This document shows, in pieces, positions 1 to 47,312 of a DNA stretch of 64,000 nt. Positions within the stretch are counted from its first letter, which is position 1; every line of letters starts with the position of its first letter. Source of the stretch: Bilabrum cf. latius (lineage: Eukaryota); contig OZ237739.1 of assembly GCA_965178125.1 (NCBI GenBank), positions 744,001-808,000 on the forward strand. The letters are read 5' to 3'. The notes beneath the pieces are model-generated. The model ran no database searches. It had not been told where the DNA came from and saw nothing but the letters and a program-made list of their open reading frames with translations. A program made the translations under genes and the position numbers.

Positions 1-3000
1 CGGCAACGACTCGGAGCCGATCTATCCCAACCCTCCGTGGATGCACCGGGCAGACGCGTTGATCCTCGATGCCCTGGAGTGCAGTGGCACGGCCAGTTTG
101 TGCCAGTCGTTGGCAGCGGCCGGTGGCAGTGGAGGCCAGCCAGTAGGCCAAGCCGGGGACGCGGTGCTGCTTGGTGCAGCACCGACCGAGGCAGCGTACC
201 TCGAAGCACTCGGGCTTGGTATCAACGCCAGCACTACCGGTCCCGGCAGTGATTTTCATGCTAGAAATCGGAACAGGACCATGTACCACGTTCAGAGGGC
301 TGCATGTCAGCTGGCCGGGGATGCCCTCGGGGGGCAAGCACCGGCTGCAACTGGAGGTGACAGAGCGCGGCAAGGTGACATCCTGTGGGCCGGTCCGGCT
401 GCAGCGTGCTAGGCGTCGTTCGCTAACCAGCCAGGTGGCCTGCTTGCTGTGGTAATTGCACGCAACCACTCAGAAGGTCACTGGAGGCCGGGAATGCCAG
501 TTCTGGAGGGACCTCTTCCATCGGAGTTGGGACTGGCGCAGGAGGCTGCCATGGTCTGGGTAGGTGGGCTTCGGTGCCTCACACGGTCTTGGGTCGACGG
601 CCCGTCGTGGGTCACTATCACGTGCGAGCCGGAGAGGGGGCTAGTTCCGGGTTTGGCTGAGGTGGTGGTACGCTCGGGTGGGGGCGGCTGGTCCACCGAT
701 GGGCTGGAGGCTCGAGGGATTCGGAGTGGGAGTGGGTGTGCACTCGCTTCCAGGCAAGCCGGAGGTGGATACCCTCGTCCAGAGGAGCCGTCTGCCGACG
801 GCGTTGCCTGCGTCGCCATTGGTTACGCGGGAGAACTCGGATTGCGAGCGGTGGAATCCGCTGCACTTGACGAGAAATGGTGGGAGGTGCCCTTGCTGCC
901 GTCAGAGGAGGCGATCTTCGAACCAGTCGGGAATGCCTGGCACGGCGGCTCTGTGCTCGATGCAAGCAAACGGAGCGTGGCCGGCGGTGCAAACGCTCTG
1001 TCTACAGGAGTAGCCACCGATTCGTCGTTGTGGGCGCTACGTGAGAAACACAGGAGCCCTGCTTCCCTTGGCTACCAGCACGTGCGCCTTCGGATGGGTA
1101 CCCTCTCCTGCAGAGTGTCGCCCGATGCAGGCAGTCTGATGGGACTGCAATCCCGGAACTAGCAGACTGGAAGTAGCAGGGTATCCTGCTGGGTGCACGA
1201 TGACCTCCCGGGCGGGCCGTTCCAGGCTGGCATGCACCTTCCTGGGCTGGAGTGGCTGGAGACGGCGGTCATCCCCGCATCTATCGAAGGCGACGATGCA
1301 GCTGTTGCGCCCCTATGGGTGCGATGGGCGAGATCGTAGCTCCAGGGGGTAGAGCCGCGGAAATTCTCTGTCCTAGACATGCTTCAGTCACACCGAGACG
1401 CGTCGTTGAACACGACAGTCACTCTGCGTGGGACTGGGCTAGAGCAAAATGGAACGTCGGCCGCTGTGGAGGTGTTTGTAGGAGGGGCACGCTGCCTTGG
1501 CATCGAGTATGCGGGCACAGATGCCATTCGCTGCCGAGTGCGGCCTGTCGAGGTGCGCAGTGGTGTCATCGAAATTGTGCGAGGCTCAGGAGGGCTTCTA
1601 CTTGATCCAACAGGGATTGATGCGCAGCAGGAATGGGCCATACTATCGGGAGTGGGTTCGTCCGTTTCGCTTGGAGTCCCGGCGCCAGTCGTATTGCCGG
1701 AACAAGGCTCCCCTAGTGACCGGCACACAGGGCTGCTGTCACCCGCAAACCCGGCCGTCCTGGGGTCAAGCCCCACCACCATGTCCACGAGGGGGGGTTC
1801 CGACCTGCAGCTCCTAGGCGTTGATCTAGGGGCATCACAGGGGGAGTATATCGCTTCAGTGGATATAGATGGCACGCCATGTCAAAACCTCACGTGGTTT
1901 TCCGACTTTGTCCTGCGATGCACCTCCGCTGCTTCGCTCGGAGGATAGGGCACGGTCAACGTGAATTCCATCTGGGGCCAGACCTTTGACAGCGCGCCTG
2001 GCATCATAGCGTACGAAATGCCGGAACTGTCCCCGACCAACCCGGTCGAGGTAGATCCGCCCGCCATTTTTAATGTGCTGGCGGAATCGTACGTGGTCCG
2101 TGCCTTCGGAAAGAACTTTGGTTTCCCCAGGCAAGGGGGCAACGGGACAGAGACGAGAATGCAGGTTTCCGGCAAGGACTGCGAGAACGTCACAGTGGTT
2201 AGCGACGGAGAGATAGTGTGCCACGAGATATCACCGCCGTGGACCATTGGTGACTACAGCGTACGGGTGATCCTGCGTGGAGGACGCACAGCGGTGGCGC
2301 TGAGTGCATTCATCTTTCAGCCGCCGGTGCGGGTGGTTTCCGCCCAGCCGGCCATAATCAGCGGAGGAGGAGGCCAAGTCACGATCGGTGGCACCGGGTT
2401 GGGCGCATCCGCTCTGGATGTGCAGTCCGTGCGGGTTGGGCCGCACGCCTGTGGGAATGTGAGGGTGGAGGAAGGCGGCACTCGCTTGACGTGTGACGTG
2501 CCTCCGGGCGTGGGAGCAGACCATCGAGTCGTGGTTGAGTCTAGGCGCAACGGATAGAACGACCCTGTAGAAGCACCAACAGTCTCCTACAAGGCTCCAT
2601 CAGTCACTAAGCTGTCCATTGTGGCTACGTCTGCGAACGTGGGAGAAGCAGAGCCAGTGGCTGCCGGTGTGTCTGCAATCAACGGCTCGAACTCAAACGC
2701 AACAATCGCAGGCACGCCTAGGGCTGCGTCGTACCTGCACGAGACGCTCGTATAGATAGAAATGGATGTTGCAGATGCGGGTTGGGATCTGCAGCAGTGG
2801 AATCCTGCTACTTCTGTCGCCGGGACAGATGGCGGACTGAACAGCACGCAGGAGTATGTAGTCGCTGTCCGTGGATCCACGTGGGCCGTACCCTGCGCAG
2901 GACTGGAGCTGGTGGGGACACAGCCCGCTGCCGCTGAGCCTTCCATCGAGCTCGTATCAAAGATCCGCTGTACGGTACTGCAGTGGCCCGCAGAGGCCAG

Positions 3001-6000
3001 GATCAGCCTTGAGGCGTTGGGTGGGGCAAGCATGAGCGAGGTGGCTCGAGTTGAGTTCTCAGTTGCTGGGCAAGATGTTCAGGGGCACCTCACAGGGGAT
3101 ACAACCGACGAACTTCGGGCCGCTTCCAGTGCCAGCGGAGGCAGTCTGCTTCTGATCGGTCGGCCTTCCATCCAGGTTGTGAGTCCCCGGCTGTTTCCAT
3201 CCAATGGCACGGCGGATGCGGTGGAAGAGGGAGCTGCAGTGCGCGCGCAAGAAGCTACTGGAGCTGCCAGTCCACCCAGCCAACAGCTAGCGATGGCGCT
3301 GCAGATCTAGTCATTGGCAGAGACTGCTGTTTTTCACCGTGATGACCTGCTTGCGGCTGCACCCACCCTCATGACCGCACCTGCATCTGCCGGGCTGCTT
3401 CAGATCCAGGGCAGTGGAATGGGGTTGGGGCCCTGGGCGCTCAGAGGAGTAACCGTCGGCGGCAAGCCTTCCCGACTGGTGGTGTGGGTCTCTAGCACCG
3501 AAGTGCTTGCATACTGCGAACCTGGTGTGGGTTTTAACGTGCCAGTAGCCGTGCAGACGTTGGGTGGCGATAGTCAGGGGATCTTAGAGGGCGGTGATGG
3601 AAATGGACAGGATGACAGTATGCAAGGAAGTGTGCCACAGCAGGCCGCTATATCCTATCAGGCACCGTACGTAGAGGCTATCGAACCGGAGTACAGCCTG
3701 ACTGGCCCAAACGTACTGTCCAACTTCACAATCATAGGGTCTCATTTTGGTTTTGAGAAAGAAGACGTGGACACCGCGTTCGTCGGAGGGCAGTAGTGCA
3801 ACCCGGTGCTGTGGGTGTCGAACGCGGAGCTGCGGTGTCTCGCAGTGCGAGGGGATAACTGGGAGGGCAGCAACGTAGAGGTGAATGTGCGGCAACAGAA
3901 GAGTCCCCGGAACCGCCTATTTGCCCACATTGGTCAGCCGGTGGTCCAGTCAGTGACCCCGCCCAACGGTGTCGGTGGCAATAGGATCATTATTGCGGGT
4001 GAGAACTTTGGCCGTCAGACCGCTGATATTGACAAGGTCATGCTGGGGCAGCACCACTGCGATGGAGTGGTCCTGCGTGGACCGACATCGATCGAATGCT
4101 TCGTGCCACAGCTGGAGGACATCAACGAGCCGGCCATGCCGGTTGTCGTGCACCAGCGGGGAGGGTCCTTCAGCACCGGCGGAGCTTCGTTCACTTACGG
4201 CGTGCTTGGCACTGTCTGGCCTTTCATAGCATCGCGCGTGCAGGCTTGGCGGGAGAGAAACGACCGGATCGAGGTGCGATGGGCCTTCCCTTTTCCAACC
4301 GGTGAGCTAGCCCTCGCACTTGGAGCAGAGCCGCTCCAGGGATTCGAAATCGAGACTAGGCTACTGCCTGCTGGCACCGGCAGCAGCTACGACGCTACGA
4401 CTGCTAGTGCAAGTGCCAGGAACGTCTCAGAAATCCAGACCACGGTCTTCGATGTTGACCTCGAGGACATTCAATTCCGGAACAGCTCTACCGGTGCGCT
4501 GGCTCTTATGAGGGCCTCCGTGACCGCGGTGGATCCTAGGCCATTACAGCTCCGGATCCGCGCATTGAATGCAGCGGGTGGAGGCCCGGCAACTAGCTGG
4601 AGCCCGCTGATTCCATCAACCTGCGCGCCTACCGAATTCCTGTCGACGTACCTCGATCCTTCCGAGTGGGTGTGCAGGTCCTGCGGGGTGACGGCCGCCA
4701 CGTGCGACGGGGGCTCATCCTTTTCGGTCGCAGCGCGTTCCGGCTACCAGCGACTGCCTTGGGTCGCCGGACGAGCTGCATTTATCCGTTGCCCTAGACC
4801 AGAATCCTGCCTGGTTGACACCGAGATTGCAACCGATAGCAAGGTCAATTCTGCTGCTACCGATAACGATGGCGGGTCTGCGCTGGCCGACGACGGCTCG
4901 GACACATCGTCTCTGCCCACTCTGCAGCAGCTGTACCAGCTTGAGCTACCGCCGCCCTCCATAGCCCTTGAACGGGCCGGTGCCATAAGGAGAGCATACA
5001 GTAACGTTACAGGGGGCAGCACCGCTGTACTTCCTGAAGTTAAGGATAGCCCGGCAGCTCCTGCTAGTCATCTCTCGACTATGCTTCCGCCATGGATGCA
5101 GGAAACTTGCGCTGAGGGCTATTCCGGTATCATGTGCGCCAGGTGCGAGCCTGGATACACACCCTGGGGGTCATATGAGTGCCAGAAATGCCGGGGCGGG
5201 GTCGCTGTGGCTGTCGTTGCTGTTTTGCTTACAATGGTGATCGTCATGATCACCATTGCACTGGTGCTGAATGCCCTGAGGCGAGGGGCGCAGACCGCAG
5301 AAAGACTGCAGCAAATGGCACGTGGTGAGACAGAGCGAGAAGACAGGTGGGGCAACGTGGTTACAATCGACTCGAGGGACGGCCGCGGCCGGATGCACGT
5401 CACTGCTGCTTCTACGGGTGCTGCTGATTCTGCGGGTATTGGTAGCGCCTGTCACCCTGCAAGCTCCATGCCTTTACCAGGCTTCGTGGGGCACCCTGAA
5501 TCTAATCGGTTAGGAGGCAAAGTGACGCTGAACCCCTTGTCCCTTGCACAGGCGGGTACCGCGCACAAGAGGCAGGACGCGTCGGTGGGCCCCGGTGCGG
5601 CTTCAATTGATCCGTCTCCGGATGCAGGGAATCCGTCGAGTAGCCGTCTGCCGTCTCAAACGCCGCAGCAGCCCGGAGAAAAGCATCCGACGGACCAACG
5701 CACAGGCTCTCATGCATCGCAAAGCCAGCTCCTTGCCGGAAATGGCGCTCCTTCCACCGGTAGTACCAAGACGTTGACGGTCAGAGAGCCTCGGCAGTGG
5801 ACGGTAGCGGCGATCAAGATCCTATTCTCCCATGTACAGGTGGTCTCCATCGCCTCGTCGTTCAAGCTATCCTGGCCGTCGTCGGTTCTCCGCTTCTTTA
5901 ATAGCATGACAATGTTCTCGAGAGTTAGCTCGGACGTACTGAGCCTGGACTGCATGCTGCAGGGCAACGGCGACAACGCCGGTGTCGTGAATCCAACGAA

Positions 6001-8011
6001 CGCCACAATGGAGTTGAGCTAGATCGAATCGGGGAGCAGTAGTGGAAATGGCCAAGCGATGGACACGAAATGGCTTGCTGTGGTCGTTGGGGGCGCCGAA
6101 GCGGCGGCCAGCAACGAGAGTAATTTCGCTGGTATCGACCCCTCGAATAGTTGGCCTCATGCCGACCTGAATGACATCAAGGTGCTCGCTGGATCCCTTG
6201 GAGTGCACGAGAGTATCATGCTGGGTGAAGGCAAGAGCAGCTCCGGGATTGCGGCCCTCATGCCTCACGGCTCGACGTATTTCCTTCGTACGCTCGTGGT
6301 GCTCATGAGCCCGTTCGTGCTTGTGGCCGGCCTGTCCCTCTTCTGGATCATAGTGGATGCGGTCGATGGATGTCTGTATGAACACGTAGACGAGGAAGAG
6401 GAGGACAAAAATAATTATAGGGAGGGCTTGGCAAGGGAAGAACATCATTAGAGCCGTCCCCAGCCGAACAGAAGCCAGGATTTGCTAGGGGCTGCAGCAG
6501 CGTCCGCGCGTGGAAGCAGGATAGATGCAGCCACTCGGCAGTGCGATGAGCCGGGTGGCCTACGCACGAAAAATGGCAGTGCAGGAGTGATGGGCCACAA
6601 TAATCACATGCCGGGGAGTGCAATGGAAGAGGGTGGGCGCACCCGCCCAGATGACTTCCGACGGCGCCGGAGTAGCGTGTTCGTCCAGTTGGCAAGGGGC
6701 TCACTGCCGGGCCTTGGCCGGCAAGCCTCTTCCACTAAGCCTGATAAAAGCGTCCCTGGGGGAACTGATAGCGAAATTGAGGGTAGTCCTGGTGCTGCCC
6801 GCGGCCCTGGTGTTCAAGAAGGTATGAACGATAGTGCTGGCTCCAATGGCATCCAGGTTTTCATTTCGGGAGGCCGCGGCGGACGGGAACGCGCTGCCGC
6901 AGAAGATAGCGGTGACGATAGTGGTGATGATGAGATATTCTGGCTGGCTGGGTCGAAGCGACCAGCCAGCATTCTGCAGTACGTCGGCGTGCCCCTCCAG
7001 GTGCTGCGACTGTCCCTCGGGATGCGGATCCTGTCGGGCCTCATCGTGATCGGCTTCCTTGTGCATCTGACGCTGACGGAGGCGTCCTTCGGCATGATGA
7101 CCTGCACAGACGTGAGGCCAGACGTGGATCTAGCGGCTGAGGACAGACTGGATCCAGCGGAAGGACGGCAGGGGGGTCTGTCGATGAGTCCGGGGCTGAC
7201 CGACGACTGCCCCGCAGGGACGGAGGGGCGCCGCCTGGTGCTCGACCTTGACGTGTGCTGCTACAACCCGAAGGCATTGGTGCTAATGTACGGCGTGGGG
7301 ATCCCCTCCGTGCTATTGTTTGCCGTCGGCATTCCGCTATCTGCCGGCCTGTGGCTGTGGAGGGTCAGGTGGCACACCGGGGAGCCTGCGGTCCTCTCTA
7401 CGCTAGGGTTCCTCATGGTGGGTTTGCAGGGCAATGCGTACTACTGGGAGGTCGTGGTGATGCTGCGAAAGCTGGCTGTGGTTGCTATTACGGTACTGGT
7501 GGAGCCCTGGGGGGTGCGTGTGCAGACCTACTCGGCCCTGGCCGTGATTTTCGCCGCCAGCGTCCTGCATTCTCTGTACCGGCCGTACAACGCCGGTGAG
7601 TTGAACGCGCTTGAACTGATCGCACTCTGTGGCGCCTTCCTGACGTTCGAGGCGGGCCTGTTCCTGCACGACCCCAACTCAGGCGAGGCCACCATCATGG
7701 CGGCGACTGCTGTGGTTTTCCTGTCAAACCTCGTCGTACTCATCGCTGGCATGTATGTGATGAAGGAGAGCATCATTAAGGCTGGGAAGAGTGCGTGCAT
7801 TGCCATTGGGGCAGTTGCAAGCAAGTGGGCGGGCGGTGAGGGCGGGGGTAAGGATGCGTCTACGGCACCTCAGAAGGGGACCAACAGCCGCGGGAGTGCA
7901 GGTACTAGTGGGCCGGCTGTTGCGAGCGGAAATGGACAAGGTCAATCTGGATGGCCTGCAGGAGGTACCGGTGCCGCTGGTGGGTTATACCGCGTGGGTG
8001 CACTAAGCTGA
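1..8011 (+). CDS. Large surface/membrane protein, 5'-partial: IPT/TIG-like repeats, FN3-like domain, Cys-rich (EGF/laminin-like) segment and multi-pass TM C-terminus
   Basis: Nine ORF-track fragments (41, 449, 1379, 1961, 2762, 3314, 3806, 6059, 6482) share one frame and are separated only by TAG (410, 1160, 1337, 1946, 2555, 2753, 3308, 3794, 6020, 6449); ends TGA 8009-8011. TIG-like motifs (ITIGGTGLG..VRVGPHAC..LTCDVPPGVG; IAGENFG), LRIRALNAAGGGP, CAEGYSGIMCARCEPGY, TM block with YYWEVVVMLRKL. Confidence 0.85.
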
Positions 8012-8046
8012 CTCAGCTGAGGCCAGCACAGCCTAGGCCGGTGCTG

Positions 8047-8194
8047 GACCGTACAGAGTTGATGGATCTGTGGCATACGTAATCGTTATCTACCCTGCCG
8101 GGTACAGTTGCTGAGAAAGACGGCGACAGTGATGGTGGGGGCTGGCCCTCCGCCAGCACCACCACAGGGCGGCCGCCCTCGGCCCGCCCTCACC
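8047..8194. repeat. Split direct repeat Y, terminal copy (148 bp)
   Basis: GACCGTACAGAGTTG...GCCCTCACC, identical to 8580-8727 (offset 533). Confidence 0.97.
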
Positions 8195-8392
8195 TCCACC
8201 CATCATGTCGTCGAAGGGAACGTGAGCTCCCTACCGGCAGGTATCAATTCAATCAGTACCAACCAAACAAAAAAATACTACCATATGCGGTGTGCTGAGT
8301 CCCCTAGTCCCGAATCCTCTGCATCGCCCTTGGCGCGATGGGTGGTGCTCCACTTGTGGTATCACCTTTTGTGCAGCTCACGGGTGGGTGGG

Positions 8393-8581
8393 TCAACTTT
8401 AGCTACAACGTCCGTTGTGCGCCTCGTGTACTAGGTATCAGTTACCTTGTGCCGTAGATTTATATCTTTTTGCGCTAGTTATTGCGCGTGCTCCCACAAG
8501 GGTGCCAGATTCCAGGGCCACTCTCCACGGTCCGATCAAACCGGAACTCTCCGCGCGCTCCGACTCCCAATTTGAAACAGA
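8393..8581. repeat. Split direct repeat X, internal copy (189 bp)
   Basis: TCAACTTTAGCTAC...TTTGAAACAGA, identical to 15283-15471 (offset 6890). Confidence 0.97.
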
Positions 8582-8727
8582 CCGTACAGAGTTGATGGAT
8601 CTGTGGCATACGTAATCGTTATCTACCCTGCCGGGTACAGTTGCTGAGAAAGACGGCGACAGTGATGGTGGGGGCTGGCCCTCCGCCAGCACCACCACAG
8701 GGCGGCCGCCCTCGGCCCGCCCTCACC
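8580..8727. repeat. Split direct repeat Y, internal copy abutting X
   Basis: Identical to 8047-8194; overlaps repeat X by GA at 8580-8581. Confidence 0.97.
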
Positions 8728-10064
8728 ACTTTGATTTGTTGTCGATCGGGCGTGTGTTGGTCGATCGGGTGTTGCCAGTCTGACTCAGGTGATCGTGTAC
8801 GCTCGGTCTGCTGCGCGGAATGTGTATTGACGCCGATGGCCAGGTGGCGTGGTCCTCGCCGCTGCAGTAGGCCTAAGCGTCGGGCTCGATCTGATTCCAA
8901 TTCATATTGCATGTCTCCACATGTCCTCCACGGCACACTGCGTGCAGTGCTGCCGGACCACCCAAGCGAAGTTTGTGCGCGTCACGATGCGTTTCCGTGC
9001 AGTCCTGTGGGGCCTAACTTTTCTCGGACCCTATCCAAATCTTCGGGTGCCAACTCAACCATCCCACACTCGTACCCGAACGGATGCAAAGGAATTCAAA
9101 GGCATCCGAATCACCAACTTGTGCAGAACGTGCAAATTCGCTCGTGGGCTCTGTTCGGGCATGAACTTTCTTGGGGCGTGGCGGTTCAATCTGGGCTGAT
9201 GGGCGCCCGGAGTGGGTCCGGTGCCGGTTGAGTTGCTGCCGTCGTCGCAGGTGCCCTCAGGTATAGGGTGTACTACAGTTGCGCGTAGACAGACAGTGCG
9301 CCTTGCAATCGATGAGGTGGTGAAGAAACCGACGAGAAACGTCGGGAAAGAAACACCTGCCCTCAGGTCCGCCCTTCTCAACCGTAGTTGAGGTGACGAG
9401 TATTCGAGTGCATAGACTATGACCCGGAGTGCTGGCTACAGCAGTCTGATTGTAGCTTGACGCGTCATCTCGGTCCCATGTTCGATAGGGGTGGGAACCT
9501 TGAAGAACATGACGTCGTCAACTAGATGGAAGGGGGCGACGTCCGCCCCTCCAATCGTGGGTGTTGTGCCTGACCCGAGAACACGTCACGTGCCGGGTCA
9601 GCAGGCCGTTGTTGATGAATGTTGGCGCGGTGGAATCCTCTCCTGCGGCATCACCCTCGTCGGTGTCAGCTGATACCTCGCCGCGTGATTGAAGTAGCAT
9701 GTCCGTTGTAACGGTCCCCGAAGCTCCAAACCTAGCCGCCGCCGATCCCCCCTCCATTCGTGATGAAGGGGTCAGAGTCGGAGCAACCGGGAGAGGGGCA
9801 GACGAGCCACCTGGGTCATACAGCAACAATCTATCACGACGAGCCGGTACAGATGCCTGATGTCGATCTGCCCTCTCGGCTACGGCTGCAACCACTCTGT
9901 CGACAGAGAGCGGGGACGTTACCTCTCGCTACCCCTCTGCCCGGTGGGCCGCGCTCGGAACTGAGCTGACTAACGATGATGATGAGACATGGTGAAGACT
10001 CCTCGTCGTGCCACAAAGTACCCTATGGATACATTCGCGCAAATGCTCTGATCACTTCTAGTTT

Positions 10065-13000
10065 GGCGGCCAGGACAAGCAGCAGTCTCACTGCGAGCCC
10101 AGCCTGCCTCTTGATCATCCAAGCCGGCGCAAGCCAGAGACACGTGCACACTGTCGTGTTCCAATCACACCAAGGCAAGCACCAGCGAGACGCAGGCGGG
10201 CGAGCAGCATTCTCACTGCGAGCCCAGCCTGCCTCTTGGTCATCCAAGCCGGCGCAAGCCAGAGACACGTGCACACTGTCGTGTTCCAATCACACCAAGG
10301 CAAGCACCAGCGAGACGCAGGCGGCCAGGGCAAGCAGCATTCTCACTGCGAGCCCAGCCTGCCTCTTGGTCATCCAAGCCGGCGCAAGCCAGAGACACGA
10401 GCACACTGTCGTGTTCCAATCACACCAAGGCAAGCACCAGCGAGACTCAGGCGGCCAGGGCAAGCAGCATTCTCACTGCAAGCCCAGCCTGCCTCTTGGT
10501 CATCCAAGCCGGCGCAAGCCAGAGACACGTGCACACAATTGTGTCCCAAATTCGCCAGAGCAAGCACCAGCGAGACTCAGGCGGCCAGGGCAAGCAGCAT
10601 TCTCACTGCAAGCCCAGCCTGCCTCTTGGTCATCCAAGCCGGCGCAAGCCAGAGACACGTGCACACAATTGTGTCCCAAAATCCAATAGGTCCAGCACCA
10701 GCGAGACTCAGGCGGCCAGGGCAAGCAGCATTCGCACTGCGAGCCCAGCCTGCCTCTTGGTCATCCAAGCCGGCGCAAGCCAGAGACACGTGCACACCAT
10801 TGTGTCCCAAATTCGCCAAAGCAAGCACCAGCGAGACGCAGGCGGCCAGGGCAAGCAGCATTCTCACTGCAAGCCCAGCCTGCCTCTTGGTCATCCAAGC
10901 CGGCGCAAGCCAGAGACACGTGCACACCATTGTGTCCCGGCCAGGGCAAGCAGCATTCTCACTGCGAGCCCAGCCTGCCTCTTGGTCATCCAAGCCGGCG
11001 CAAGCCAGAGACACGTGCACACCATTGTGTCCCAAATTCGCCAAAGCAAGCACCAGCGAGACTCAGGCGGCCAGGGCAAGCAGCATTCTCACTGCGAGCC
11101 CAGCCTGCCTCTTGGTCATCCAAGCCGGCGCAAGCCAGAGACACGTGCACACCATTGTGTCCCAAAATCCAACAAGACTAGTTCCAGCGAGACTCAGGCG
11201 GGCGGCCAGGACAAGCAGCATTCTCACTGCAAGCCCAACCTGCCTCTTGGTCATCCAAGCCGGCGCAAGCCAGAGACACGTGCACACCATTGTGTCCCAA
11301 ATTCGCCAAAGCAAGCACCAGCGAGACTCAGGCGGCCAGGGCAAGCAGCATTCTCACTGCAAGCCCAACCTGCCTCTTGGTCATCCAAGCCGGCGCAAGC
11401 CAGAGACACGTGCACACCATTGTGTCCCAAATTCGCCAAAGCAAGCACCAGCGAGACTCAGGCGGCCAGGGCAAGCAGCATTCTCACTGCAAGCCCAGCC
11501 TGCCTCTTGGTCATCCAAGCCGGCGCAAGCAAGTGACACGTGCACACCATTGTGTCCCAAATTCGCCAAAGCAAGCACCAGCGAGACGCAGGCGGCCAGG
11601 GCAAGCAGCATTCTCACTGCAAGCCCAGCCTGCCTCTTGGTCATCCAAGCCGGCGCAAGCCAGAGACACGTGCACACCATTGTGTCCCAAAATCCAACAA
11701 GACTAGTTCCAGCGAGACTCAGGCGGGCGGCCAGGACAAGCAGCATTCTCACTGCAAGCCCAACCTGCCTCTTGGTCATCCAAGCCGGCGCAAGCCAGTG
11801 ACACGTGCACACTGTCGTGTTCCAATCACACCAAGGCAAGCACCAGCGAGACTCAGGCGGCCAGGGCAAGCAGCATTCTCACTGCGAGCCCAGCCTGCCT
11901 CTTGGTCATCCAAGCCGGCGCAAGCCAGAGACACGTGCACACTGTCATGTCCCAAATTCGCCAAAGCAAGCACCAGCGAGACGCAGGCGGACAAGCAGCA
12001 TTCTCACTGCAAGCCCAACCTGCCTCTTGGTCATCCAAGCCGGCGCAAGCCAGAGACACGAGCACACTGTCGTGTTCCAATCACACCAAGGCAAGCACCA
12101 GCGAGACGCAGGCGGCCAGGGCAAGCAGCATTCTCACTGCAAGCCCAGCCTGCCTCTTGGTCATCCAAGCCGGCGCTAGCCAGAGACACGTGCACACCAT
12201 TGTGTCCCAAAATCCAACAAGGCAAGCACCAGCGAGACTCAGGCGGCCAGGACAAGCAGCATTCTCACTGCAAGCCCAGCCTGCCTCTTGGTCATCCAAG
12301 CCGGCGCAAGCCAGAGACACGTGCACACTGTCGTGTCCCAATAGACCAAGACAAGCACCAGCGAGACTCAGGCGGCCAGGGCAAGCAGCCATAGCACTGC
12401 GAGCCCCCGCCTGCCTCTTGGTCATCCAAGCCGGCGCAAGCAAGTGACACGAGCACACTGTCGTGTTCCAATCACACCAAGGCAAGCACCAGCGAGACTC
12501 AGGCGGCCAGGGCAAGCAGCCATAGCACTGCGAGCCCCCGCCTGCCTCTTGGTCATCCAAGCCGGCGCAAGCAAGTGACACGAGCACACTGTCGTGTTCC
12601 AATCACACCAAGGCAAGCACCAGCGAGACTCAGGCGGCCAGGGCAAGCAGCATTCTCACTGCAAGCCCAGCCTGCTACTTGGTCATTCAAGCCGGCGCAA
12701 GCCAGTGACACGTGCACACCATTGTGTCCCAAATTCGCCAGAGCAAGCACCAGCGAGACTCAGGCGGCGAGGGCAAGCAGCATTCTCACTGCGAGCCCCG
12801 CCTGCTACTTGGTCATCCAAGCCGGCGCAAGCCAGAGACACGTGCACACTGTCGTGTTCCAATCACACCAAGGCAAGCACCAGCGAGACGCAGGCGGCCA
12901 GGGCAAGCAGCATTCTCACTGCGAGCCCAGCCTGCCTCTTGGTCATCCAAGCCGGCGCAAGCCAGTGACACGAGCACACTGTCGTGTTCCAATCACACCA

Positions 13001-14742
13001 AGGCAAGCACCAGCGAGACGCAGGCGGCCAGGGCAAGCAGCATTCTCACTGCGAGCCCAGCCTGCCTCTTGGTCATCCAAGCCGGCGCAAGCCAGAGACA
13101 CGAGCACACTGTCGTGTTCCAATCACACCAAGGCAAGCACCAGCGAGACTCAGGCGGCCAGGGCAAGCAGCATTCTCACTGCGAGCCCAGCCTGCCTCTT
13201 GGTCATCCAGGCCGGCGCAAGCCAGAGACACGTGCACACTGTCGTGTTCCAAGCACACCAAGGCAAGCACCAGCGAGACTCAGGCGGTCAGGGCAAGCAG
13301 CATTCTCACTGCAAACCCAGCCTGCCTCTTGGTCATCCAAGCCGGCGCAAGCCAGAGACACGAGCACACTGTCGTGTTCCAATCACACCAAGGCAAGCAC
13401 CAGCGAGACGCAGGCGGCCAGGGCAAGCAGCATTCTCACTGCGAGCCCAGCCTGCCTCTTGGTCATCCAAGCCGGCGCAAGCCAGAGACACGTGCACACC
13501 ATTGTGTCCCAAATTCGCCAAAGCAAGCACCAGCGAGACTCAGGCGGCCAGGGCAAGCAGCATCCTCACTGCGAGCCCAGCCTGCCTCTTGGTCATCCAA
13601 GCCGGCGCAAGCAAGTGACACGTGCACACCATTGTGTCCCAAATTCGCCAGAGCAAGCACCAGCGAGACTCAGGCGGCGAGGGCAAGCAGCATTCTCACT
13701 GCGAGCCCCGCCTGCTACTTGGTCATCCAAGCCGGCGCAAGCCAGAGACACGTGCACACTGTCGTGTTCCAATCACACCAAGGCAAGCACCAGCGAGACT
13801 CAGGCGGCCAGGGCAAGCAGCATTCTCACTGCGAGCCCAGCCTGCCTCTTGGTCATCCAGGCCGGCGCAAGCCAGAGACACGTGCACACTGTCGTGTTCC
13901 AAGCACACCAAGGCAAGCACCAGCGAGACTCAGGCGGTCAGGGCAAGCAGCATTCTCACTGCAAACCCAGCCTGCCTCTTGGTCATCCAAGCCGGCGCAA
14001 GCCAGAGACACGAGCACACTGTCGTGTTCCAATCACACCAAGGCAAGCACCAGCGAGACGCAGGCGGCCAGGGCAAGCAGCATTCTCACTGCGAGCCCAG
14101 CCTGCCTCTTGGTCATCCAAGCCGGCGCAAGCCAGAGACACGTGCACACCATTGTGTCCCAAATTCGCCAAAGCAAGCACCAGCGAGACTCAGGCGGCCA
14201 GGGCAAGCAGCATTCTCACTGCGAGCCCAGCCTGCCTCTTGGTCATCCAAGCCGGCGCAAGCAAGTGACACGTGCACACCATTGTGTCCCAAATTCGCCA
14301 AAGCAAGCACCAGCGAGACTCAGGCGGCGAGGGCAAGCAGCCATCGCACTGCAAGCCCAGCCTGCCTCTTGGTCATCCAGGCCGGCGCAAGCCAGAGACA
14401 CGTGCACACTATTGCCAACAAGGCAAGCACCAGCGAGACTCAGGCGGCCAGGGCAAGCAGCATTCTCACTGCAAGCCCAGCCTGCTACTTGGTCATCCAA
14501 GCCGGCGCAAGCCAGAGACACGTGCACACAATGTGTCCCAAAATCCAACAAGGCAAGCACCAGCGAGACTCAGGCGGCCAGGGCAAGCAGCATTCTTACT
14601 GCAAGCCCAGCCTGCTACTTGGTCATCCAAGCCGGCGCAAGCCAGAGACACGTGCACACTATTGTGTCCCAAAATTCAACAAGGCAAGCACCAGCGAGAC
14701 TCAGGCGGCCAGGGCAAGCAGCATTCTCACTGCGAGCCCAGC
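10065..14742. repeat. Tandem array of ~36 units of ~130 bp inside the element
   Basis: Unit GCAAGCAGCATTCTCACTGCRAGCCCAGCCTGCCTCTTGGTCATCCAAGCCGGCGCAAGCCAGAGACACGTGCACAC-[variable ~25 nt]-GCAAGCACCAGCGAGACTCAGGCGGCCAGG; copy number estimated from length/130. Confidence 0.97.
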
Positions 14743-15282
14743 ACTCTCTTGTTGATGCATTGGCTCCCGGGGCATCGAGATGCCCAGATTAGTTACGAGG
14801 CGTAGGTATAAGGTTGTTGGCCTGCTGTTTGTGCTCGACCTGCCGCCTCCTTTCTCCATTCTGTGAGAGACTGAACTCAATAATAGTTTATTTTTCGTTT
14901 GAAAGTAAGGCTGCGAGGCATCAGGTGCATAGCATGTGAGTGCCCTAAACGGTTGTGCTCAATGACCGGGCTGGACTACTTGTGCGGAGCCCGCTGGTCG
15001 GCAAGTCGCTTGGCAGCCCGCCTAGAAGTTCTTAATGTACAGTCAAGTCAATGCGATGGTCTGTTTGATGTCCATCTCGTGGGTCTTGACGGGCAGCAGG
15101 GACAGTTGGCACGTTGACAACGACTGGGGACCTCATTGGCCTGCAATCGGGCATCTTGGCGCGCCTTCTGAGCATAAAACTGTCGGATGGACCCAGTGTG
15201 CGTTTCAGTGTAGGAGCATTGCGAGGTTGTGTTCGCGTAGCAAGAGTCTTGCTGCAGCTGGGGTACACTTCACTTGGTGGCT

Positions 15283-15471
15283 TCAACTTTAGCTACAACG
15301 TCCGTTGTGCGCCTCGTGTACTAGGTATCAGTTACCTTGTGCCGTAGATTTATATCTTTTTGCGCTAGTTATTGCGCGTGCTCCCACAAGGGTGCCAGAT
15401 TCCAGGGCCACTCTCCACGGTCCGATCAAACCGGAACTCTCCGCGCGCTCCGACTCCCAATTTGAAACAGA
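15283..15471. repeat. Split direct repeat X, terminal copy (189 bp)
   Basis: Identical to 8393-8581; the minus strand contains GATATAAAT (TATA-like). Confidence 0.97.
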
Positions 15472-15567
15472 TCTGTTGCGATCGAGCAAAGAGGGGGAGT
15501 TGCTGTTTGTTGCTAGACGCAGCCACTGCCGGCTCAGGCACTATTTGGTTAGGCACGCATTCAATAA

Positions 15568-18497
15568 TCACAAGTGTATTCTAGCCTCAGGGGAGGCGCC
15601 CGCCTATGATTCAGGTGAGGCCCCGACTCCACCAGAGCTGGCCCCCTTCTTCACCGGCGTACCTCCGCTGTTTGATACCTCCTCGTCTTCCTCCTCGCTC
15701 TCCCCCTTTGATTCCGTCCCACCAACACCAGCGTCCTTTCCCGCCTGCGTAGTCCTCTTGGGCGCCCCCCCTCTGCCGCTCGCACCAGCACCTTTCCTGC
15801 CAGCAGTGGTAGTGAAGGCACTCCCAGCACTGCCAGATCCACCTCCCGCGCCGGCACTCGCGCCCTTCGCAGCCTCTTGCTCGATCTTTTGAAGTGCTTT
15901 TTCTTCCTCCTCCGCGGCCTCCCGCAGCTCGCTGAGCAGCCTCGCTTCCTGCTCCTCCATCGCATGCACGGCCTTCATGGCTTCCTCCTCCCGCCCCGCC
16001 TCCTTCTTCATCCGATCCTCGTAGGCCTTGCGCTGGGCCTCCCTCTTGGCCGCCAGCGCCGCCTCCCTTCTCTTCTGGGCCTTCTCTCGCTCTAGCCTCG
16101 CTTTCTCTGCCGCCTTCTTCCTCCGTTTGGCCTCCTTCTCGGCTGCTTTCTTGAGCAAAGCCTCGTGCTGCCGGCGCTCCGCGCGGACCCTGTCGGCGGC
16201 AGCCTTGGCTTCTTTCTCCGTCTCGCGCTCGGCCGCGCGGCACTGCTCGCGGCGCTCCTTGGCCTTCTTACGGTTTTGCTGACGGATCTTCTTGATGCTC
16301 TTGCCTTCGTCTGTCTGGCGCGCGCGACGGGTGCTGGCCTGCGCCGTGGCGGCCCGCTGTGCTCTGGCCACGGCCTCATGGTGCGCGTGCGCAAGCTCCA
16401 CGCGGCGCTTGGCACCTCCTATCTCGTGTTTGAGCCGCTGCAGGCGGTTCTCCATTAGCCTCCGCATATGCTCCGCTTCTTGGCGCCGCGCCATGGCTGC
16501 TAGCATCCCTGCTTCAGCCTGCCCCGCAGCATCCTCGCCCCCCTCAGCACCAGCCCCAGCACCAGCCCCAGCACTGCCGCCCTGTTGAGTGCCCTCGGAC
16601 CTCGATCCCGATGCTGTCGAACCGTGTCCCGCCCGACTGCTTGCACCCGCCCGGGAGCCCGCACCCGGGGCGATGTGTTCCCCAGCCGGTCCCGGGATGC
16701 TCCTCTCGTACGGGGACCGGGACGGCGGCGGCTGGAGCATTGCATGGCGATGCTATCCAGCGAACCCGTCCTCGTCCTCGTCGGCGCTGACACCGAGCGG
16801 CGTGGTGGCCGCGAAACCACCGGGCCCGCCGCGACCGCTGCTGGCACCCCCTAGGCTATGACCGCCAACGGCACTAGCCCCCGCGCTGCGAAGTCCCACG
16901 GACTGACGGAGGGGCGTCAGGGCAGAGGCGCTCAGCCCGCCCCCCCGGCTCTGAAGCTGCCGCGGCAGCAGGGTGGGCGACGTGCTGCCCATTCTGGTTC
17001 CACTGCGCGGCGACCGGCTTCTCGGCCTGCGGAAACCGGAACTACCGGACCCAGGCTGCGGGTGACCCGCGCCGCCGCGCTGGCGTCCAGACGCAGTCGT
17101 GGCGCGGTTTGCGGGGCCGCGCAATGGTTCCGCACCCCCAGACGCACTTGTTCCTTCGCTCTGTGAGACGTCTTTGTGTTCCTGTGCCTTCCTGTGCCGC
17201 AGGAAGCTCGGAATCTTGCCGAGTGGCCTCTCGCGGTCCAGTGGGGACCTGGGCTCGCTGCCGCCATGTAGCGCACCACCGTGCGATGCACCCTGGTGGT
17301 GGGGTTCTCTCGAGGGAAATGCCGCGTGAGCCGCCGCCATTGACCTCGGCTTGGGACTGGTCGCCCTCGGGGAAGGCTGCGCCTGCGGGTGTGACGAGTG
17401 AGGGCCACCCTCACGGCGACTCTTTTGTCCCCTGGGTGCCCCTGCCCGGGGACTCCTGCTCCTGTTCCTTGCCCTGGGCGAGTGCTTGGCCCCACCGCCA
17501 CTGCTGCCCGCAGGCCGCGGAGGTGCCACCACCACGGTGCGGCGTGTGACCCTCTTCCTCGACTGCTGGCTGAGGGCAAGGAAATAGGGGGAAGCAGTCA
17601 GCGGGCCCCCACCATTGCCAACACTGACACTTGTTCCGAAGCCCCCATTCGTTGCTCCTACCTTGCCCTAGGTCCAGCCATGCCTGGTGCCACCACCGGC
17701 AGATGCATCTGCTCCACTGCCGCGCTGCCCGCCGCCCGTCTCCTTCGACTCGATTGCGGCGGCGCTGTCCGCCTGTCGGTAGCTGCCACCACCACCACCA
17801 CCCTGGGATCTCGATCCAGAAATTGGGGCTCGTCGCGGCGGGGCCGACACCCGGATGGGCACCTGCTTGACGACAGCGCCCGTCTCCTGCATGATGATCG
17901 AACGAGCCATGGCGCGGGGAGACCGCTTGCCTCTTTTCCTGGCGGTTGAGCCCTTCGCCCGGCGATTGGAGGCATCGTGTGGATCTCTGCTCGCCGTCCA
18001 TTTGCTGCCAGCCTTTTCCTCTTTGGCGGCGAGGGCGATGCTGTTTCCTTCTAGGTCGTCCGCGGTGCGTCGTCCGGATTCCTTGCTACCGGAGCCTATC
18101 CGGCCGCCACTTGTTCCGGCCCCGTCGTTAATGGGTGCACTAGTTCGTGTGCCACCCTGCCGTGATTCTGGCTAGCTGGTCCAGGGCGAGAGCCTGCCGG
18201 CCGGCTCGCTCCTTGCAGAATGAGCTTCGTTCGGCTTGGCATCGCTTCCAGACCCTGCGATGTTGCACGTTACGCAGTTCAAGGCTGTGAATGAATCACT
18301 TTGCGAGAACAAGGGGAAATGAACAGATCATATGGCCCTATCTCACGGGTTGGAGCCATCTCAACACTGGGCCCAGGTGCAACTTGGGATGGCGATTTGT
18401 CGTGAGGCCGAGCCGCATGCCGGGAGCTGGCGCGCGACTGGATATCTTCCCCAAATAGATCGTCGTCAGACGACGATGCAGTTAGCTTTCTGTTCAT
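15568..18497 (-). CDS. Uncharacterised protein: long disordered N-terminus and C-terminal charged coiled coil (2 exons)
   Basis: Exon 1 18497-18347, phase-compatible GT-AG intron 18346-18255, exon 2 to TGA 15570-15568; in-frame TAG at 18172, 17668, 16753, 15604; E/K/R/A-rich coiled coil (MENRLQRLKHE...). Confidence 0.7.
18255..18346 (-). other. Spliceosomal intron (92 nt)
   Basis: GTGAGA...TCGCAG; removal joins the ATG exon in frame to the long downstream ORF. Confidence 0.7.
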
Positions 18498-25100: not shown

Positions 25101-25378
25101 ACTCCGACGGCGGCGACGAGAGCCACCGTAGCTCCCGCGCCACCCGTCCATCCCCACCTTTGCGCCGGCGTCACGCAGACACCCTGGGTAGCCCCATCAG
25201 GAACGTCACGAAATCCATCATCAGCGTAAGAGGGCTGGGCGAAGGCTCCTTCTTGGCTGCTGGCAAAGTTGCTAGAGGCATGCTCGGGCGGCAGAACCAC
25301 GGTGTCTTCGGCAGCGATATCTCCGTACATACCCTCATTCGATTCTTTCCCATCTTCACGAAGTTTAGCTCCCGACAT
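22133..25378 (-). CDS. M1 family aminopeptidase (aminopeptidase N/ERAP1-like), type II membrane anchor
   Basis: ATQFEAT.AR.AFPCFDEP, GAMENWGL, HELVHQ..NEGYA, FDDISYAKGGS and an ERAP1-like C-terminus; four in-frame TAG (24647, 23738, 23438, 22229); TGA 22135-22133. Confidence 0.93.
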
Positions 25379-25643
25379 ATCAGATGAGCGGAGACGCGGG
25401 GTGGCAGCGTCCGAACGAAAGACTAGGATTGATTTTTGGGCCCTTGCGTGGAGATCTATTTCTGCAACGAACCTCTCCGAACGTTCGTATCGTCTGAAAT
25501 GACCAAAACTACAGCACTCGATTTCTGCATCCATGCACCGGACAATTAGCAGTCCGCGCATAATTCGCACATTAAAAAGATTAAGATCCACCAGATCTGT
25601 CCAGGATGTATCTGTAAATCAAGTTTTAGCGCAATTGCAAGGC

Positions 25644-47000: not shown

Positions 47001-47312
47001 TACGTTCAGCGACAGGGCCACCTCTATGTCATCAACCGCGGCCGGCTCGCTCGCCCACACGCGGATGGTAACCAATTCTCCCTCTGATGATGCATCTGGA
47101 ATGGTAATATTAGATTCGGATTCAAGAGGGAGCTCTATTGTACCGATGGCGGCGTGAAAGCGCGGCACTGAAGAGCTGCTGAGCCGTCGACCCCAGGAAC
47201 GAAGCTGTTCTACATCTTCAAGTCCGACGTCCGCCTCCTCGTACGAAGAGGCCTGTGATAACTCTACATATACTCCAAGTACCACGGCCGAAATTGCAAG
47301 AACCGCCCACAT
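29049..47312 (-). CDS. Giant polycystin-1/REJ-like receptor (~6,090 aa): signal peptide, Calx-beta-like repeats, REJ, EGF-like, GPS, multi-TM, IQ motif
   Basis: 20 ORF-track fragments in a single frame, 25 in-frame TAG, no TAA/TGA until 29051-29049. Signal MWAVLAISAVVLGV; repeats FT.ANW..PQ.V.V.A.DD; REJ VNQPPFSG..WTDDEEDLPLRYLFGY; GPS CRYFDEE..CATLHLTDFS; IQ-like VQSAYRRFHA. Confidence 0.88.

What the first reader, a model, noticed from the sequence alone, without database searches (positions are those of the whole stretch)
8047..15471. Young, apparently non-autonomous split-direct-repeat retroelement carrying a satellite instead of genes
Seen: X - body - Y X - unique - Y layout with 189-bp and 148-bp repeats identical by eye, so insertion looks recent. 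No RT, RNase H or tyrosine-recombinase ORF is recognisable even with TAG read-through, and 4.7 of 7.4 kb is a tandem array. Established: split direct repeats define Ngaro/PAT YR-retrotransposons; from memory Chlamydomonas TOC1 has this layout plus internal tandem repeats, and Ngaro elements occur in Cafeteria burkhardae. Inference: it is mobilised in trans and spreads a satellite.
Basis: partly seen in the sequence, partly recalled or inferred. Interest (0 to 1): 0.8.

Follow-up and report, generated by a model that had tools for sequence, protein, structure and literature searches.

The report
Gene-less split-repeat retrotransposon carrying a satellite
This is a 7.4-kb mobile element without genes, built like the known TOC1-type tyrosine-recombinase retrotransposons and filled mostly with a 130-bp tandem repeat; it is a new example of a known kind, not a new kind.

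Summary
A 148-bp repeat (8047-8194 = 8580-8727) and a 189-bp repeat (8393-8581 = 15283-15471) are both 100% identical and interleaved. The inner copies abut with a 2-nt overlap, so the joined outer ends equal the inner junction. A 130-bp x 36 tandem array (10065-14742) makes up 63% of the 7,425 bp. No protein domain is found under the standard code or with TAG read as sense, which this genome does. Read on the minus strand, the layout is the canonical A1-internal-B1A2-spacer-B2 of PAT/Ngaro/VIPER elements.

Contigs of four public runs show a multi-copy, sequence-variable family with other flanks. It is about single-copy in two coded organisms and roughly 4-19-fold in two others. A strand-specific RNA hairpin (z -5.8) sits on the B1|A2 junction of the minus strand.

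Best reading (0.7): a young non-autonomous DIRS-order retrotransposon like TOC1, mobilised in trans. The autonomous partner, the RNA intermediate and the presence of the satellite in other copies could not be tested. New member of a known kind; moderate interest.

The parts
8047..15471 (-). Whole element, 7,425 bp. The sense strand is inferred to be the window's minus strand.
   Evidence: Limits are set by the exact repeats. Loose ends show other flanks before 8047 and behind 8581, the latter equivalent to 15471.
15283..15471 (-).
   Evidence: 100% identical to 8393-8581
8728..15282 (-). Internal region, 6,555 bp: 540 bp unique (14743-15282), the array, and 1,337 bp unique (8728-10064)
   Evidence: No Pfam domain. 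One ORF searched against 1.84 billion proteins gave only spurious cadherin-repeat hits.
10065..14742 (.). Tandem array of a 130-bp unit, about 36 units, 63% of the element
   Evidence: TRF. Unit alignment gave 37 anchors with spacing mostly 130. For 35 units, mean pairwise identity is 0.899 with 29 distinct sequences, and there is a 460-bp exact block duplication at lag 650.
8580..8727 (-).
   Evidence: 100% identical to 8047-8194
8393..8581 (-). A2 (189 bp), abutting B1 with a 2-nt overlap (GA on +, UC on -)
8195..8392 (-). 198-bp unique spacer between A2 and B2
   Evidence: Unrelated to the body: local alignment scores sit at the level of shuffles. It is multi-copy in reads, with variants.
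8047..8194 (-). B2 (148 bp), the 3' terminus on the minus strand; contains the 12-nt palindrome GGGCGGCCGCCC (8167-8178)
8519..8593 (-). 75-nt strand-specific RNA hairpin centred on the B1|A2 junction
   Evidence: -39.3 kcal/mol, z -5.79, 0 of 200 shuffles as stable. The + strand gives z -0.14. It is the top outlier of 514 windows scanned.
2..8011 (+). Left flanking gene (at least 2,669 codons with TAG read as sense, 5 TIG domains), stop TGA 8009-8011, 35 bp before the element
15568..18327 (-). Right flanking gene, convergent, stop TGA 15568-15570, 96 bp after the element

Best explanation
This is a young, non-autonomous retrotransposon of the tyrosine-recombinase (DIRS) order, of the split-direct-repeat type (PAT/Ngaro/VIPER architecture, TOC1-like). 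It is inserted in the 131-bp spacer between two convergent genes.

Read on the window's minus strand it is A1(189) - internal 6.6 kb - B1(148)A2(189) - 198-bp spacer - B2(148).

Inferred mechanism, following the published model for this order:
- The element is transcribed from the minus strand.
- It is reverse-transcribed by enzymes supplied in trans by an unseen autonomous relative.
- The internal B1A2 junction serves as the template, or pairing partner, that restores and joins the two termini.
- The joined form is integrated by the relative's tyrosine recombinase without a target-site duplication. The dinucleotide GA is found once at the inner junction and once at each end.
- The 130-bp array is passive cargo that was already present when this copy was made.

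Shown here: the architecture, the absence of coding capacity, the multi-copy variable family with other flanks, and the hairpin. Inferred: the RNA intermediate, trans-mobilisation, the recombinase step, and the role of the hairpin.
For: 1) The repeat layout matches the definition 'A1-internal-B1-A2-B2' (passages of PMC8969392; PMC6681497; PMC4157794; PMC13465315). Both pairs are 100% identical.

2) The outer ends joined together reproduce the inner junction exactly, with a shared GA. A passage of PMC7192593 describes DIRS elements as flanked at either end by the short sequence found at the circle junction.

3) No TSD is present. The flanks are ...GTGCTG and TCTGTT.... Lack of TSDs is listed as a DIRS trait.

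4) There is no coding capacity.

5) Family behaviour in reads:
- The single-copy flank contig has depth 79.6 (X3), 18 (X5) and 3.87 (X8).
- Exact-match element contigs have depth 70.5-81.6 in X3 (about 1x) but 147-351 in X5 (8-19x).
- In X7 they are 15-31 against a flank of 3.2-4.3.
- Variant contigs carry 12-15 differences per 139-164 nt.
- Loose ends show other flanks before 8047 (X8) and behind 8581 (X5, X3).

6) The spacer and repeats are about 4-17x in X3, while part of the body (8856-9263) is about 1x. Family members therefore share the repeat module and differ inside.

7) The units of the array differ by 10% on average while the 337 bp of repeat pairs show 0 differences. The array's diversity is therefore older than the insertion.

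8) The junction hairpin is stable only on the minus strand: 27 pairs, 5 of them G.U. This agrees with the orientation given by the canonical layout.
Against: - No reverse transcriptase or recombinase gene was seen anywhere. The 33 long ORFs of the window have none, and the genome could not be searched.
- No RNA run is on record.
- Short contigs cannot link the two halves. They reach only 28-30 letters into the adjoining repeat, one to three short of the tool's 31-letter criterion for a bridge. The long-range order therefore rests on the assembly alone.
- Depths of contigs are, by the tool's own warning, not copy numbers.
- The spacer-to-body depth ratio varies from 0.4 to 1.7 among the four runs, not the 1:1 of uniform full copies.
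- Some loose ends leave the b repeat after 8579, before the GA, so the GA is not kept in all copies.
- The hairpin was picked after seeing the fold, and no covariation is available because the copies do not vary there.
Confidence: 0.7

Rival explanations
1. These are two separate members of one family lying head to tail: a short one (a-198 bp-b, 8047-8581) and a long one (a-body-b, 8580-15471). Each would be bounded by a at one end and b at the other, for example after site-specific insertion of one beside the other. The split-repeat picture would then be a by-product.
For: Short contigs cannot link the halves. The spacer and the body differ in summed depth, with ratios of 0.4-1.7 across the four runs. 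In Trypanosoma cruzi the short element SIRE corresponds to just the A2...B2 part of VIPER (passage of PMC6681497), so short units of this kind can exist on their own.
Against: Both repeat pairs are 100% identical even though family copies differ elsewhere, including in b (3 substitutions and 1 deletion in a variant contig of X3). That is expected if both pairs were made in one replication cycle, and it would be a coincidence for two independent insertions. The spacer is not a deletion derivative of the body. The exact layout is the textbook one for this order.
Confidence: 0.1
2. This is a DNA-only mobile element, or an integrated circular DNA, that moves by a site-specific recombinase without reverse transcription. 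The inner junction would be a relic of a partial tandem integration.
For: No RT is in evidence. The joined ends equal the inner junction, as for any element that passes through a circle. The right junction forms a 12-nt perfect palindrome, AACAGA|TCTGTT, reminiscent of recombinase core sites.
Against: In the passages I read, split direct repeats are attributed only to YR retrotransposons, while Cryptons are described as having only 4-6-bp direct repeats (passage of PMC13465315). A partial tandem of one circle would repeat the spacer or the body, which is not seen. The hairpin is strand-specific through G.U pairs, which points to RNA. Another insertion's flank (X5) lacks the palindrome.
Confidence: 0.1
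3. This is a rearranged LTR-retrotransposon derivative (LARD/TRIM-like), or a nested or tandem pair of LTR elements.
For: It has direct repeats of LTR-like size, a non-coding interior, and identical repeats as in young LTR elements.
Against: The ends are GACC...CAGA, not TG...CA. No 4-6-bp TSD is present. No tRNA-like primer site beginning TGG follows either repeat, by my reading. The two repeat pairs are interleaved, and the outer limits fall exactly on the inner b|a boundary, which LTR recombination does not predict.
Confidence: 0.05
4. This is an assembly artefact: the repeats were mis-joined, and the true locus has a simpler structure.
For: Long-range order could not be checked with reads. 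No listed contig spans the stretch.
Against: Each local junction is represented in contigs or loose ends of several runs from different studies:
- flank|a: X3 and X8, reaching 28 and 30 nt into a.
- a|spacer|b: X5, X7 and X8, reaching 30 nt into each repeat.
- a|body: X5, X7 and X8.
- body|b: loose end identical to 15253-15282 in X3, X5 and X8.
- b|right flank: loose end identical to 15472-15501 in X3 and X8.
Confidence: 0.03

Closest known systems
TOC1 of Chlamydomonas reinhardtii (non-autonomous relative of TOC3, PAT group of the DIRS order)
   Same: Both are non-coding elements of several kb bounded by split direct repeats, mobilised in trans, with copy number varying among strains. TOC1 is called 'non-autonomous DIRS retrotransposon' in PMC9940879 and 'non-autonomous version of TOC3' in PMC5613634. 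From recall only (Day et al. 1988 and Day & Rochaix 1991 were not held): TOC1's layout is 237 - internal - 217.237 - 123 - 217, and it has an internal array of 76-bp repeats.
   Different: The repeat lengths differ (189/148 against 237/217 recalled). The unit is 130 bp, and the array makes up 63% of the element. The host reads TAG as sense and has long intron-free genes. No sequence comparison with TOC1 was possible, and the autonomous partner is unknown.
SIRE / VIPER of Trypanosoma cruzi
   Same: This is a non-autonomous derivative of a split-repeat YR retrotransposon. SIRE equals the A2...B2 part of VIPER (PMC6681497 passage), which corresponds here to 8047-8581. In run X3 that module has about 4-fold or more the depth of part of the body.
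   Different: SIRE is about 0.4 kb and lacks A1 and an internal region. Here a complete A1...B2 unit with 6.6 kb of cargo is present.
Autonomous Ngaro and PAT-like elements (e.g. in zebrafish, fungi, nematodes, Ectocarpus)
   Same: Same terminal architecture, A1-internal-B1-A2-B2, and no TSD.
   Different: They encode Gag, RT/RNase H and YR (plus a methyltransferase in PAT). None of these is present here.
Transposons carrying internal tandem arrays that seed satellites (e.g. Tetris of Drosophila virilis, PMC4079207, search listing and abstract start only)
   Same: A mobile element whose interior is a tandem array that could be dispersed by transposition.
   Different: Tetris is a foldback DNA transposon. 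Here the carrier has the architecture of a YR retrotransposon, and dispersal of the array was not shown.

Membership tests
Split-direct-repeat YR retrotransposons (PAT-like / Ngaro / VIPER; DIRS order) | Two pairs of direct repeats in the order A1 - internal - B1 A2 - B2 | tested here: met
   189-bp and 148-bp pairs, both 100% identical, are in this order on the minus strand.
Split-direct-repeat YR retrotransposons (PAT-like / Ngaro / VIPER; DIRS order) | Joined termini (B2+A1) equal the internal B1A2 junction; a short junction sequence is present at both ends | tested here: met
   The outer limits fall exactly on the inner boundary. GA occurs once at the junction and once at each end. It is 2 nt here, against trinucleotides in DIRS. 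Chance of a 2-nt overlap is 1/16.
Split-direct-repeat YR retrotransposons (PAT-like / Ngaro / VIPER; DIRS order) | No target-site duplication | tested here: met
   The flanks GTGCTG | ... | TCTGTT share nothing adjacent to the ends. A 3-nt CTG match exists only if the right end is shifted by 1 nt. Only one insertion has both flanks known.
Split-direct-repeat YR retrotransposons (PAT-like / Ngaro / VIPER; DIRS order) | Encodes RT/RNase H and a tyrosine recombinase | tested here: not met
   No Pfam family passes its cut-off in 16 + 8 ORFs, and only 2,075 bp are unique. It can therefore be filed only as a non-autonomous derivative.
Split-direct-repeat YR retrotransposons (PAT-like / Ngaro / VIPER; DIRS order) | For a non-autonomous member: an autonomous element in the same genome shares the terminal repeats | not testable with these tools
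   No genome is held. There were 0 hits in metagenome, prokaryote-genome and viral contigs.
Split-direct-repeat YR retrotransposons (PAT-like / Ngaro / VIPER; DIRS order) | Dispersed multi-copy family with different flanks | tested here: met
   One search shows variant contigs, other flanks at 8047 and 8581, and summed depth 2-19 times the flank in X3, X5 and X7. Depth of contigs is only a rough guide.
PAT versus Ngaro versus VIPER (which superfamily) | Methyltransferase domain present (PAT) or absent (Ngaro, VIPER); RT/YR phylogeny | not testable with these tools
   There are no proteins in the element.
TOC1 family itself | Nucleotide similarity to TOC1/TOC3 termini | not tested
   No TOC1 sequence was at hand in any tool. 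The repeat and unit lengths differ from those I recall.
LTR retrotransposon derivatives (LARD/TRIM) | Terminal LTR pair with TG...CA, PBS/PPT, 4-6-bp TSD | tested here: not met
   The ends are GACC...CAGA. No TSD is present, no TGG-start primer site follows a repeat, and the repeat pairs are interleaved.
Helitron | 5'-TC...CTRR-3' ends, insertion between A and T | tested here: not met
   The minus strand starts TC but ends ...CGGTC, and the flanking bases are G and T.
Penelope-like pseudo-LTR | Simple repeat of the element's tail formed by a 5'-truncated tandem copy | tested here: not met
   There are two interleaved repeat pairs and a unique 198-bp spacer unrelated to the body.

The most novel reading that the evidence does not exclude
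The 75-nt minus-strand hairpin is not incidental. Because the B1|A2 junction lies inside one of its helices, the same pairing in a linear sense-polarity strand would bring the 3' end of B2 against the 5' end of A1 as a nick in a continuous helix. Split-repeat elements would then close their ends by self-pairing. That would be a counterpart of the internal complementary region of DIRS-1, and it would be the minimal cis signal that lets a gene-less element, and any satellite inside it, be copied around a compact genome.
Probability: 0.15. Interest if true: 0.6.

Novelty: new member of a known kind. Interest (0 to 1): 0.35.

Why it matters
Non-autonomous tyrosine-recombinase retrotransposons are rarely described; TOC1 and SIRE are the usual examples. 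How split-repeat elements restore and join their ends is still only a model.

This copy is clean: both repeat pairs are perfect, there is one insertion between two genes, and the window is otherwise repeat-free. It belongs to a family whose depth differs roughly 10-fold between closely matching samples. The organism may therefore offer a live system for studying trans-mobilisation.

The repeat module (A1, B1A2, spacer, B2) is shared by copies with different interiors, which marks it as the cis-acting part. The junction hairpin gives a concrete, testable candidate signal.

The element also shows how a 4.7-kb satellite can sit inside a mobile unit in a gene-dense genome that reads TAG as a sense codon.

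Tried and rejected
- **Own genome search:** not held.
- **Other copies in public collections:** exact-pattern scans of metagenome contigs (junction; b repeat), prokaryote genome contigs (satellite) and viral contigs (junction and satellite) all gave 0 hits.
- **Earlier findings:** nothing for this genome or sequence.
- **RNA:** no RNA holder is listed among the sequencing runs. Runs X5-X7 are only guessed as RNA, and their contig lengths (51 and 34 kb) look like DNA.
- **This insertion in run X5:** its flank contig stops at 7928 and nothing is laid on 7929-8046.
- **Coding remnants:**
  - Pfam on 16 + 8 ORFs gave only sub-threshold chance hits: RsfS 19.9 bits against cut-off 21.6, Phage_GPD 16 against 30.1, DGKI E 0.08.
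  - The array ORF against 5.8 billion protein clusters gave nothing at E <= 0.001 among 8,000 candidates of 333-1063 aa.
  - ORF 9058-9585(-) against 1.84 billion proteins gave 4 hits at E 2e-7 to 4e-4, none at 1e-10 or better. All four are bacterial cadherin-repeat proteins matched many times by a 40-residue stretch, and the pairwise BLASTP E-value is 0.28. I rejected these as spurious.
  - Codon-position GC of element ORFs does not show the host pattern GC2 < GC1 < GC3 clearly.
- **Open frames of the array's + strand:** explained by composition. It has 13.5% T, the expected number of TAA+TGA is 2.3 per unit, and P(0) is about 0.1. The unit length is not a multiple of 3.
- **Origin of the array from adjoining element sequence:** the flanks do not resemble the unit above shuffles.
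- **Spacer as a deletion product of the body:** no similarity.
- **Rfam and tRNA scans of the window:** 0 matches.
- **Bacterial promoter/terminator scan:** nothing above shuffles, and it is not apt for a eukaryote.
- **Host taxon:** the M1 peptidase exon has best hits of at most 51% identity, spread over animals, chytrids and protists. The malonyl-CoA decarboxylase search gave 3 weak hits. The taxon is left open.
- **Amino acid encoded by TAG:** the 4 TAG sites of the peptidase gene fall in unconserved or gapped columns, so this is undecided.
- **Literature on a hairpin at split-repeat junctions:** one search was too loose. One search lists 4 papers holding both 'split direct repeats' and 'hairpin'. 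None is about this by title, and I saw the listing only.
Full report
**What is there**

The region 8047-15471 (7,425 bp) carries two exact direct-repeat pairs: 148 nt at 8047-8194 and 8580-8727, and 189 nt at 8393-8581 and 15283-15471. Both are 100% identical, and blastn confirmed them. In the script I printed all hits except satellite-to-array hits inside 10000-14800; apart from the two repeat pairs, each part of the element matched only itself.

On the + strand the order is a - 198 bp unique - b a - 6,555-bp body - b. The inner b and a overlap by GA. The bases outside the repeats differ. The outer ends of the element therefore coincide to the base with the inner b|a boundary, and joining the ends reproduces the inner junction.

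The body consists of 1,337 bp unique sequence, a tandem array at 10065-14742 and 540 bp unique sequence. The array has period 130, with 6.8 + 29.3 copies at 91-92% matches. It makes up 4,678 bp, or 63% of the element. The other 56.6 kb of the window holds no repeat of 35 nt or more.

**Context**

The genome reads TAG as a sense codon. With TAG read through, the window resolves into very long uninterrupted frames. For example, 29052-47369(-) has 6,106 codons with 25 TAG, 0 TAA and 0 TGA in frame, while the other two frames hold 139-170 TGA. The frame 2-8008(+) has 2,669 codons with 10 TAG. Six of the seven frames checked end in TGA; the seventh check, at the right flanking gene, was off by one codon, and one search shows that gene also ends in TGA.

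The element lies between two convergent genes. The left gene carries TIG domains and stops at 8009-8011, 35 bp before the element. The right gene stops at 15568-15570, 96 bp after it. Without the element the spacer between the genes would be 131 bp.

The host taxon stays open. A conserved peptidase exon finds nothing above 51% identity.

**No genes**

- None of 16 element ORFs under the standard code reaches a Pfam cut-off, and neither does any of 8 under TAG=Q.
- None of 33 long ORFs elsewhere in the window is an RT, RNase H or recombinase.
- The long open frames on the + strand of the array follow from its composition: 13.5% T, and a unit that by chance lacks TAA/TGA, with P about 0.1. The unit is not a multiple of three.
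- A translation of the array finds no protein among 5.8 billion clusters.
- One minus-strand ORF of the unique body, searched against 1.84 billion representatives, gave only four weak hits to bacterial cadherin-repeat proteins. I reject these as spurious.
- With 2,075 bp of unique sequence, the element cannot encode its own machinery.

**What kind of element**

Read on the minus strand, the layout is A1(189) - internal - B1(148)A2(189) - 198 bp - B2(148). This is the arrangement given as typical for split-direct-repeat DIRS elements in the passages I read:
- PMC8969392, which also names 'lack of TSDs';
- PMC6681497 for VIPER, Ngaro and PAT;
- PMC4157794;
- PMC13465315, which contrasts Cryptons, described there as having only 4-6-bp direct repeats.

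No TSD flanks this copy. The GA found once at the junction and once at each end parallels the junction trinucleotide described for DIRS elements (PMC7192593 passage). A 2-nt overlap has a 1/16 chance, so this is weak support.

Features of LTR elements (TG...CA, primer site, TSD), Helitrons and Penelope pseudo-LTRs are not met.

**Is it a family, and does it move?**

The genome is not held, and exact-pattern scans of three collections found nothing. One search of public runs found 8 runs, from 4 studies and 4 coded organisms, that hold 63-91% of the sampled words of 7000-10060. I laid contigs of four of them on 6000-10060. I left the array out because the tool turns away long repeats.

The flank is one long contig with no differences: depth 79.6 in X3, 18 in X5 and 3.87 in X8. 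The samples are therefore very close relatives. The element breaks into many short contigs.

| Run | Flank depth | Exact-match element contigs | Ratio to flank |
|---|---|---|---|
| X3 | 79.6 | 70.5-81.6 (body) | about 1x |
| X5 | 18 | 147-351 | 8-19x |
| X7 | 3.2-4.3 | 15-31 | about 4-8x |
| X8 | 3.87 | 2-9.8 | about 0.5-2.5x |

In X3 there are also variant contigs with 12-15 differences per 139-164 nt, at about 0.5-0.6x.

In X3 the repeats and the spacer sum to about 4-17x, while 8856-9263 stays at 1x. Other members therefore share the repeat module but not this interior. A variant contig in X3 and X5 replaces 8613-9797 with 27 other letters.

Loose ends give the expected second contexts. 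The body end 15253-15282 appears before b in X3, X5 and X8. The right flank 15472-15501 appears behind b in X3 and X8. Loose ends also give foreign flanks, before 8047 in X8 and behind 8581 in X5 and X3.

Caveats:
- These are contigs, so depth is no true copy number.
- Contigs reach only 28-30 letters into the next repeat, short of the tool's 31-letter rule for a bridge.
- Nothing links the two halves of the element.

With these limits, the family is multi-copy, heterogeneous, dispersed, and very unequal in abundance between near-identical genomes. This is what a recently active, trans-mobilised element would show.

**Age, and the satellite as cargo**

The repeat pairs show 0 differences in 337 bp. 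The 35 full units of the array average 89.9% pairwise identity (minimum 77.7%), with 29 distinct sequences and three variant types. There are also recent block duplications, including a 460-bp exact repeat at lag 650.

Such diversity cannot have arisen since an insertion this young. I therefore infer that the array was already in the template that was copied. The inference fails if gene conversion keeps the repeat pairs identical. Whether other copies carry the array was not tested.

**A new detail: the junction hairpin**

Folding the repeat module showed a hairpin centred on the B1|A2 junction that is stable only on the minus strand.

| Stretch and strand | Parameters | Energy (kcal/mol) | z-score | Shuffles as stable |
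|---|---|---|---|---|
| 8519-8593 (-) | RNA | -39.3 | -5.79 | 0 of 200 |
| 8512-8600 (+) | RNA | -20.6 | -0.14 | 83 of 200 |
| 8512-8600 (-) | DNA | -16.6 | -2.37 | 3 of 200 |
| 8512-8600 (+) | DNA | -11.5 | -0.98 | 39 of 200 |

In a scan of 514 windows of 90 nt, covering both strands of the flanks and the unique parts, it is the strongest outlier: z -6.1 against -4.2 for the next window, with 40 shuffles each.

By my reading of the dot-bracket string it has 27 pairs, 5 of them G.U, which explains the asymmetry. The junction lies inside a 9-bp helix. The strand agrees with the orientation deduced from the canonical layout.

The same pairing between the 3' end of B2 and the inside of A1 would place the two ends of a linear sense-polarity strand side by side. 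I offer this as a hypothesis for end joining, analogous to the internal complementary region shown to be essential in DIRS-1 (PMC7192593 abstract and passages).

It was found post hoc. The copies do not vary there, so there is no covariation test.

**Comparison and verdict**

The closest known element is TOC1 of Chlamydomonas. It is called a non-autonomous DIRS retrotransposon with strain-variable copy number (PMC9940879 passage) and a non-autonomous version of TOC3 (PMC5613634 passage). Its repeat lengths and its internal 76-bp array are recalled, not read, because the papers were not held.

SIRE of T. cruzi corresponds to the A2...B2 part of VIPER, which here is 8047-8581.

The element meets the structural criteria of the split-repeat group and fails the coding criterion, so it can be filed only as a non-autonomous derivative. 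Its superfamily (PAT, Ngaro or VIPER-like) cannot be told.

I rate it a new member of a known kind, of moderate interest: confidence 0.7 for the main reading, interest 0.35.

The main open points are the autonomous partner, an RNA intermediate, and the presence of the satellite in other copies.

Noticed in passing
whole window, e.g. 29052-47369(-), 2-8008(+), 57465-63998(-), 22136-25618(-): TAG is an in-frame sense codon. Reading it through fuses ORFs into frames of 6,106, 2,669, 2,178 and 1,161 codons, with 25, 10, 8 and 4 TAG and no TAA or TGA in frame. Genes end in TGA and show no introns. Which amino acid TAG encodes could not be decided, because the 4 sites in the M1 peptidase gene fall in unconserved columns.
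   Followed up: partly
15466-15477: The right element/flank junction is a perfect 12-nt palindrome, AACAGA|TCTGTT: the first 6 flank bases are the reverse complement of the element's last 6. The chance is about 1/4096 per junction. Another insertion's right flank seen in run X5 (ACCTTC...) lacks it, so it may be coincidence or a loose target preference.
   Followed up: partly
8167-8178 and 8700-8711: Each 148-bp repeat holds the palindrome GGGCGGCCGCCC within a very GC-rich tail. Windows 8105-8224 fold strongly on both strands (-44 to -52 kcal/mol, z -2.4 to -3.3).
   Followed up: no
13104-13563 and 13754-14213: A 460-bp exact duplication, five units apart, lies inside the array, and several unit pairs are identical (u25=u30, u26=u31, u08=u27=u32). 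This shows recent block duplication or unequal exchange within the array.
   Followed up: yes
8612 to 9798: One contig in X3 (depth 54.5) and one in X5 (5.4) join position 8612, inside the 148-bp repeat, to 9798 through 27 other letters. This is a family variant with a different or deleted interior.
   Followed up: no
15472-64000 and 1-8046: Apart from this element, the window has no direct or inverted repeat of 35 nt or more, no tRNA and no Rfam family. The genome appears gene-dense and repeat-poor here.
   Followed up: yes
8723-10051 (-): With TAG read as sense, three overlapping minus-strand ORFs of 177, 176 and 177 codons tile the 1.3-kb unique part next to B1. They have no Pfam hit, no convincing homologue for the middle one and only a weak codon-position signal. 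They are probably chance, though a decayed gene cannot be excluded.
   Followed up: partly
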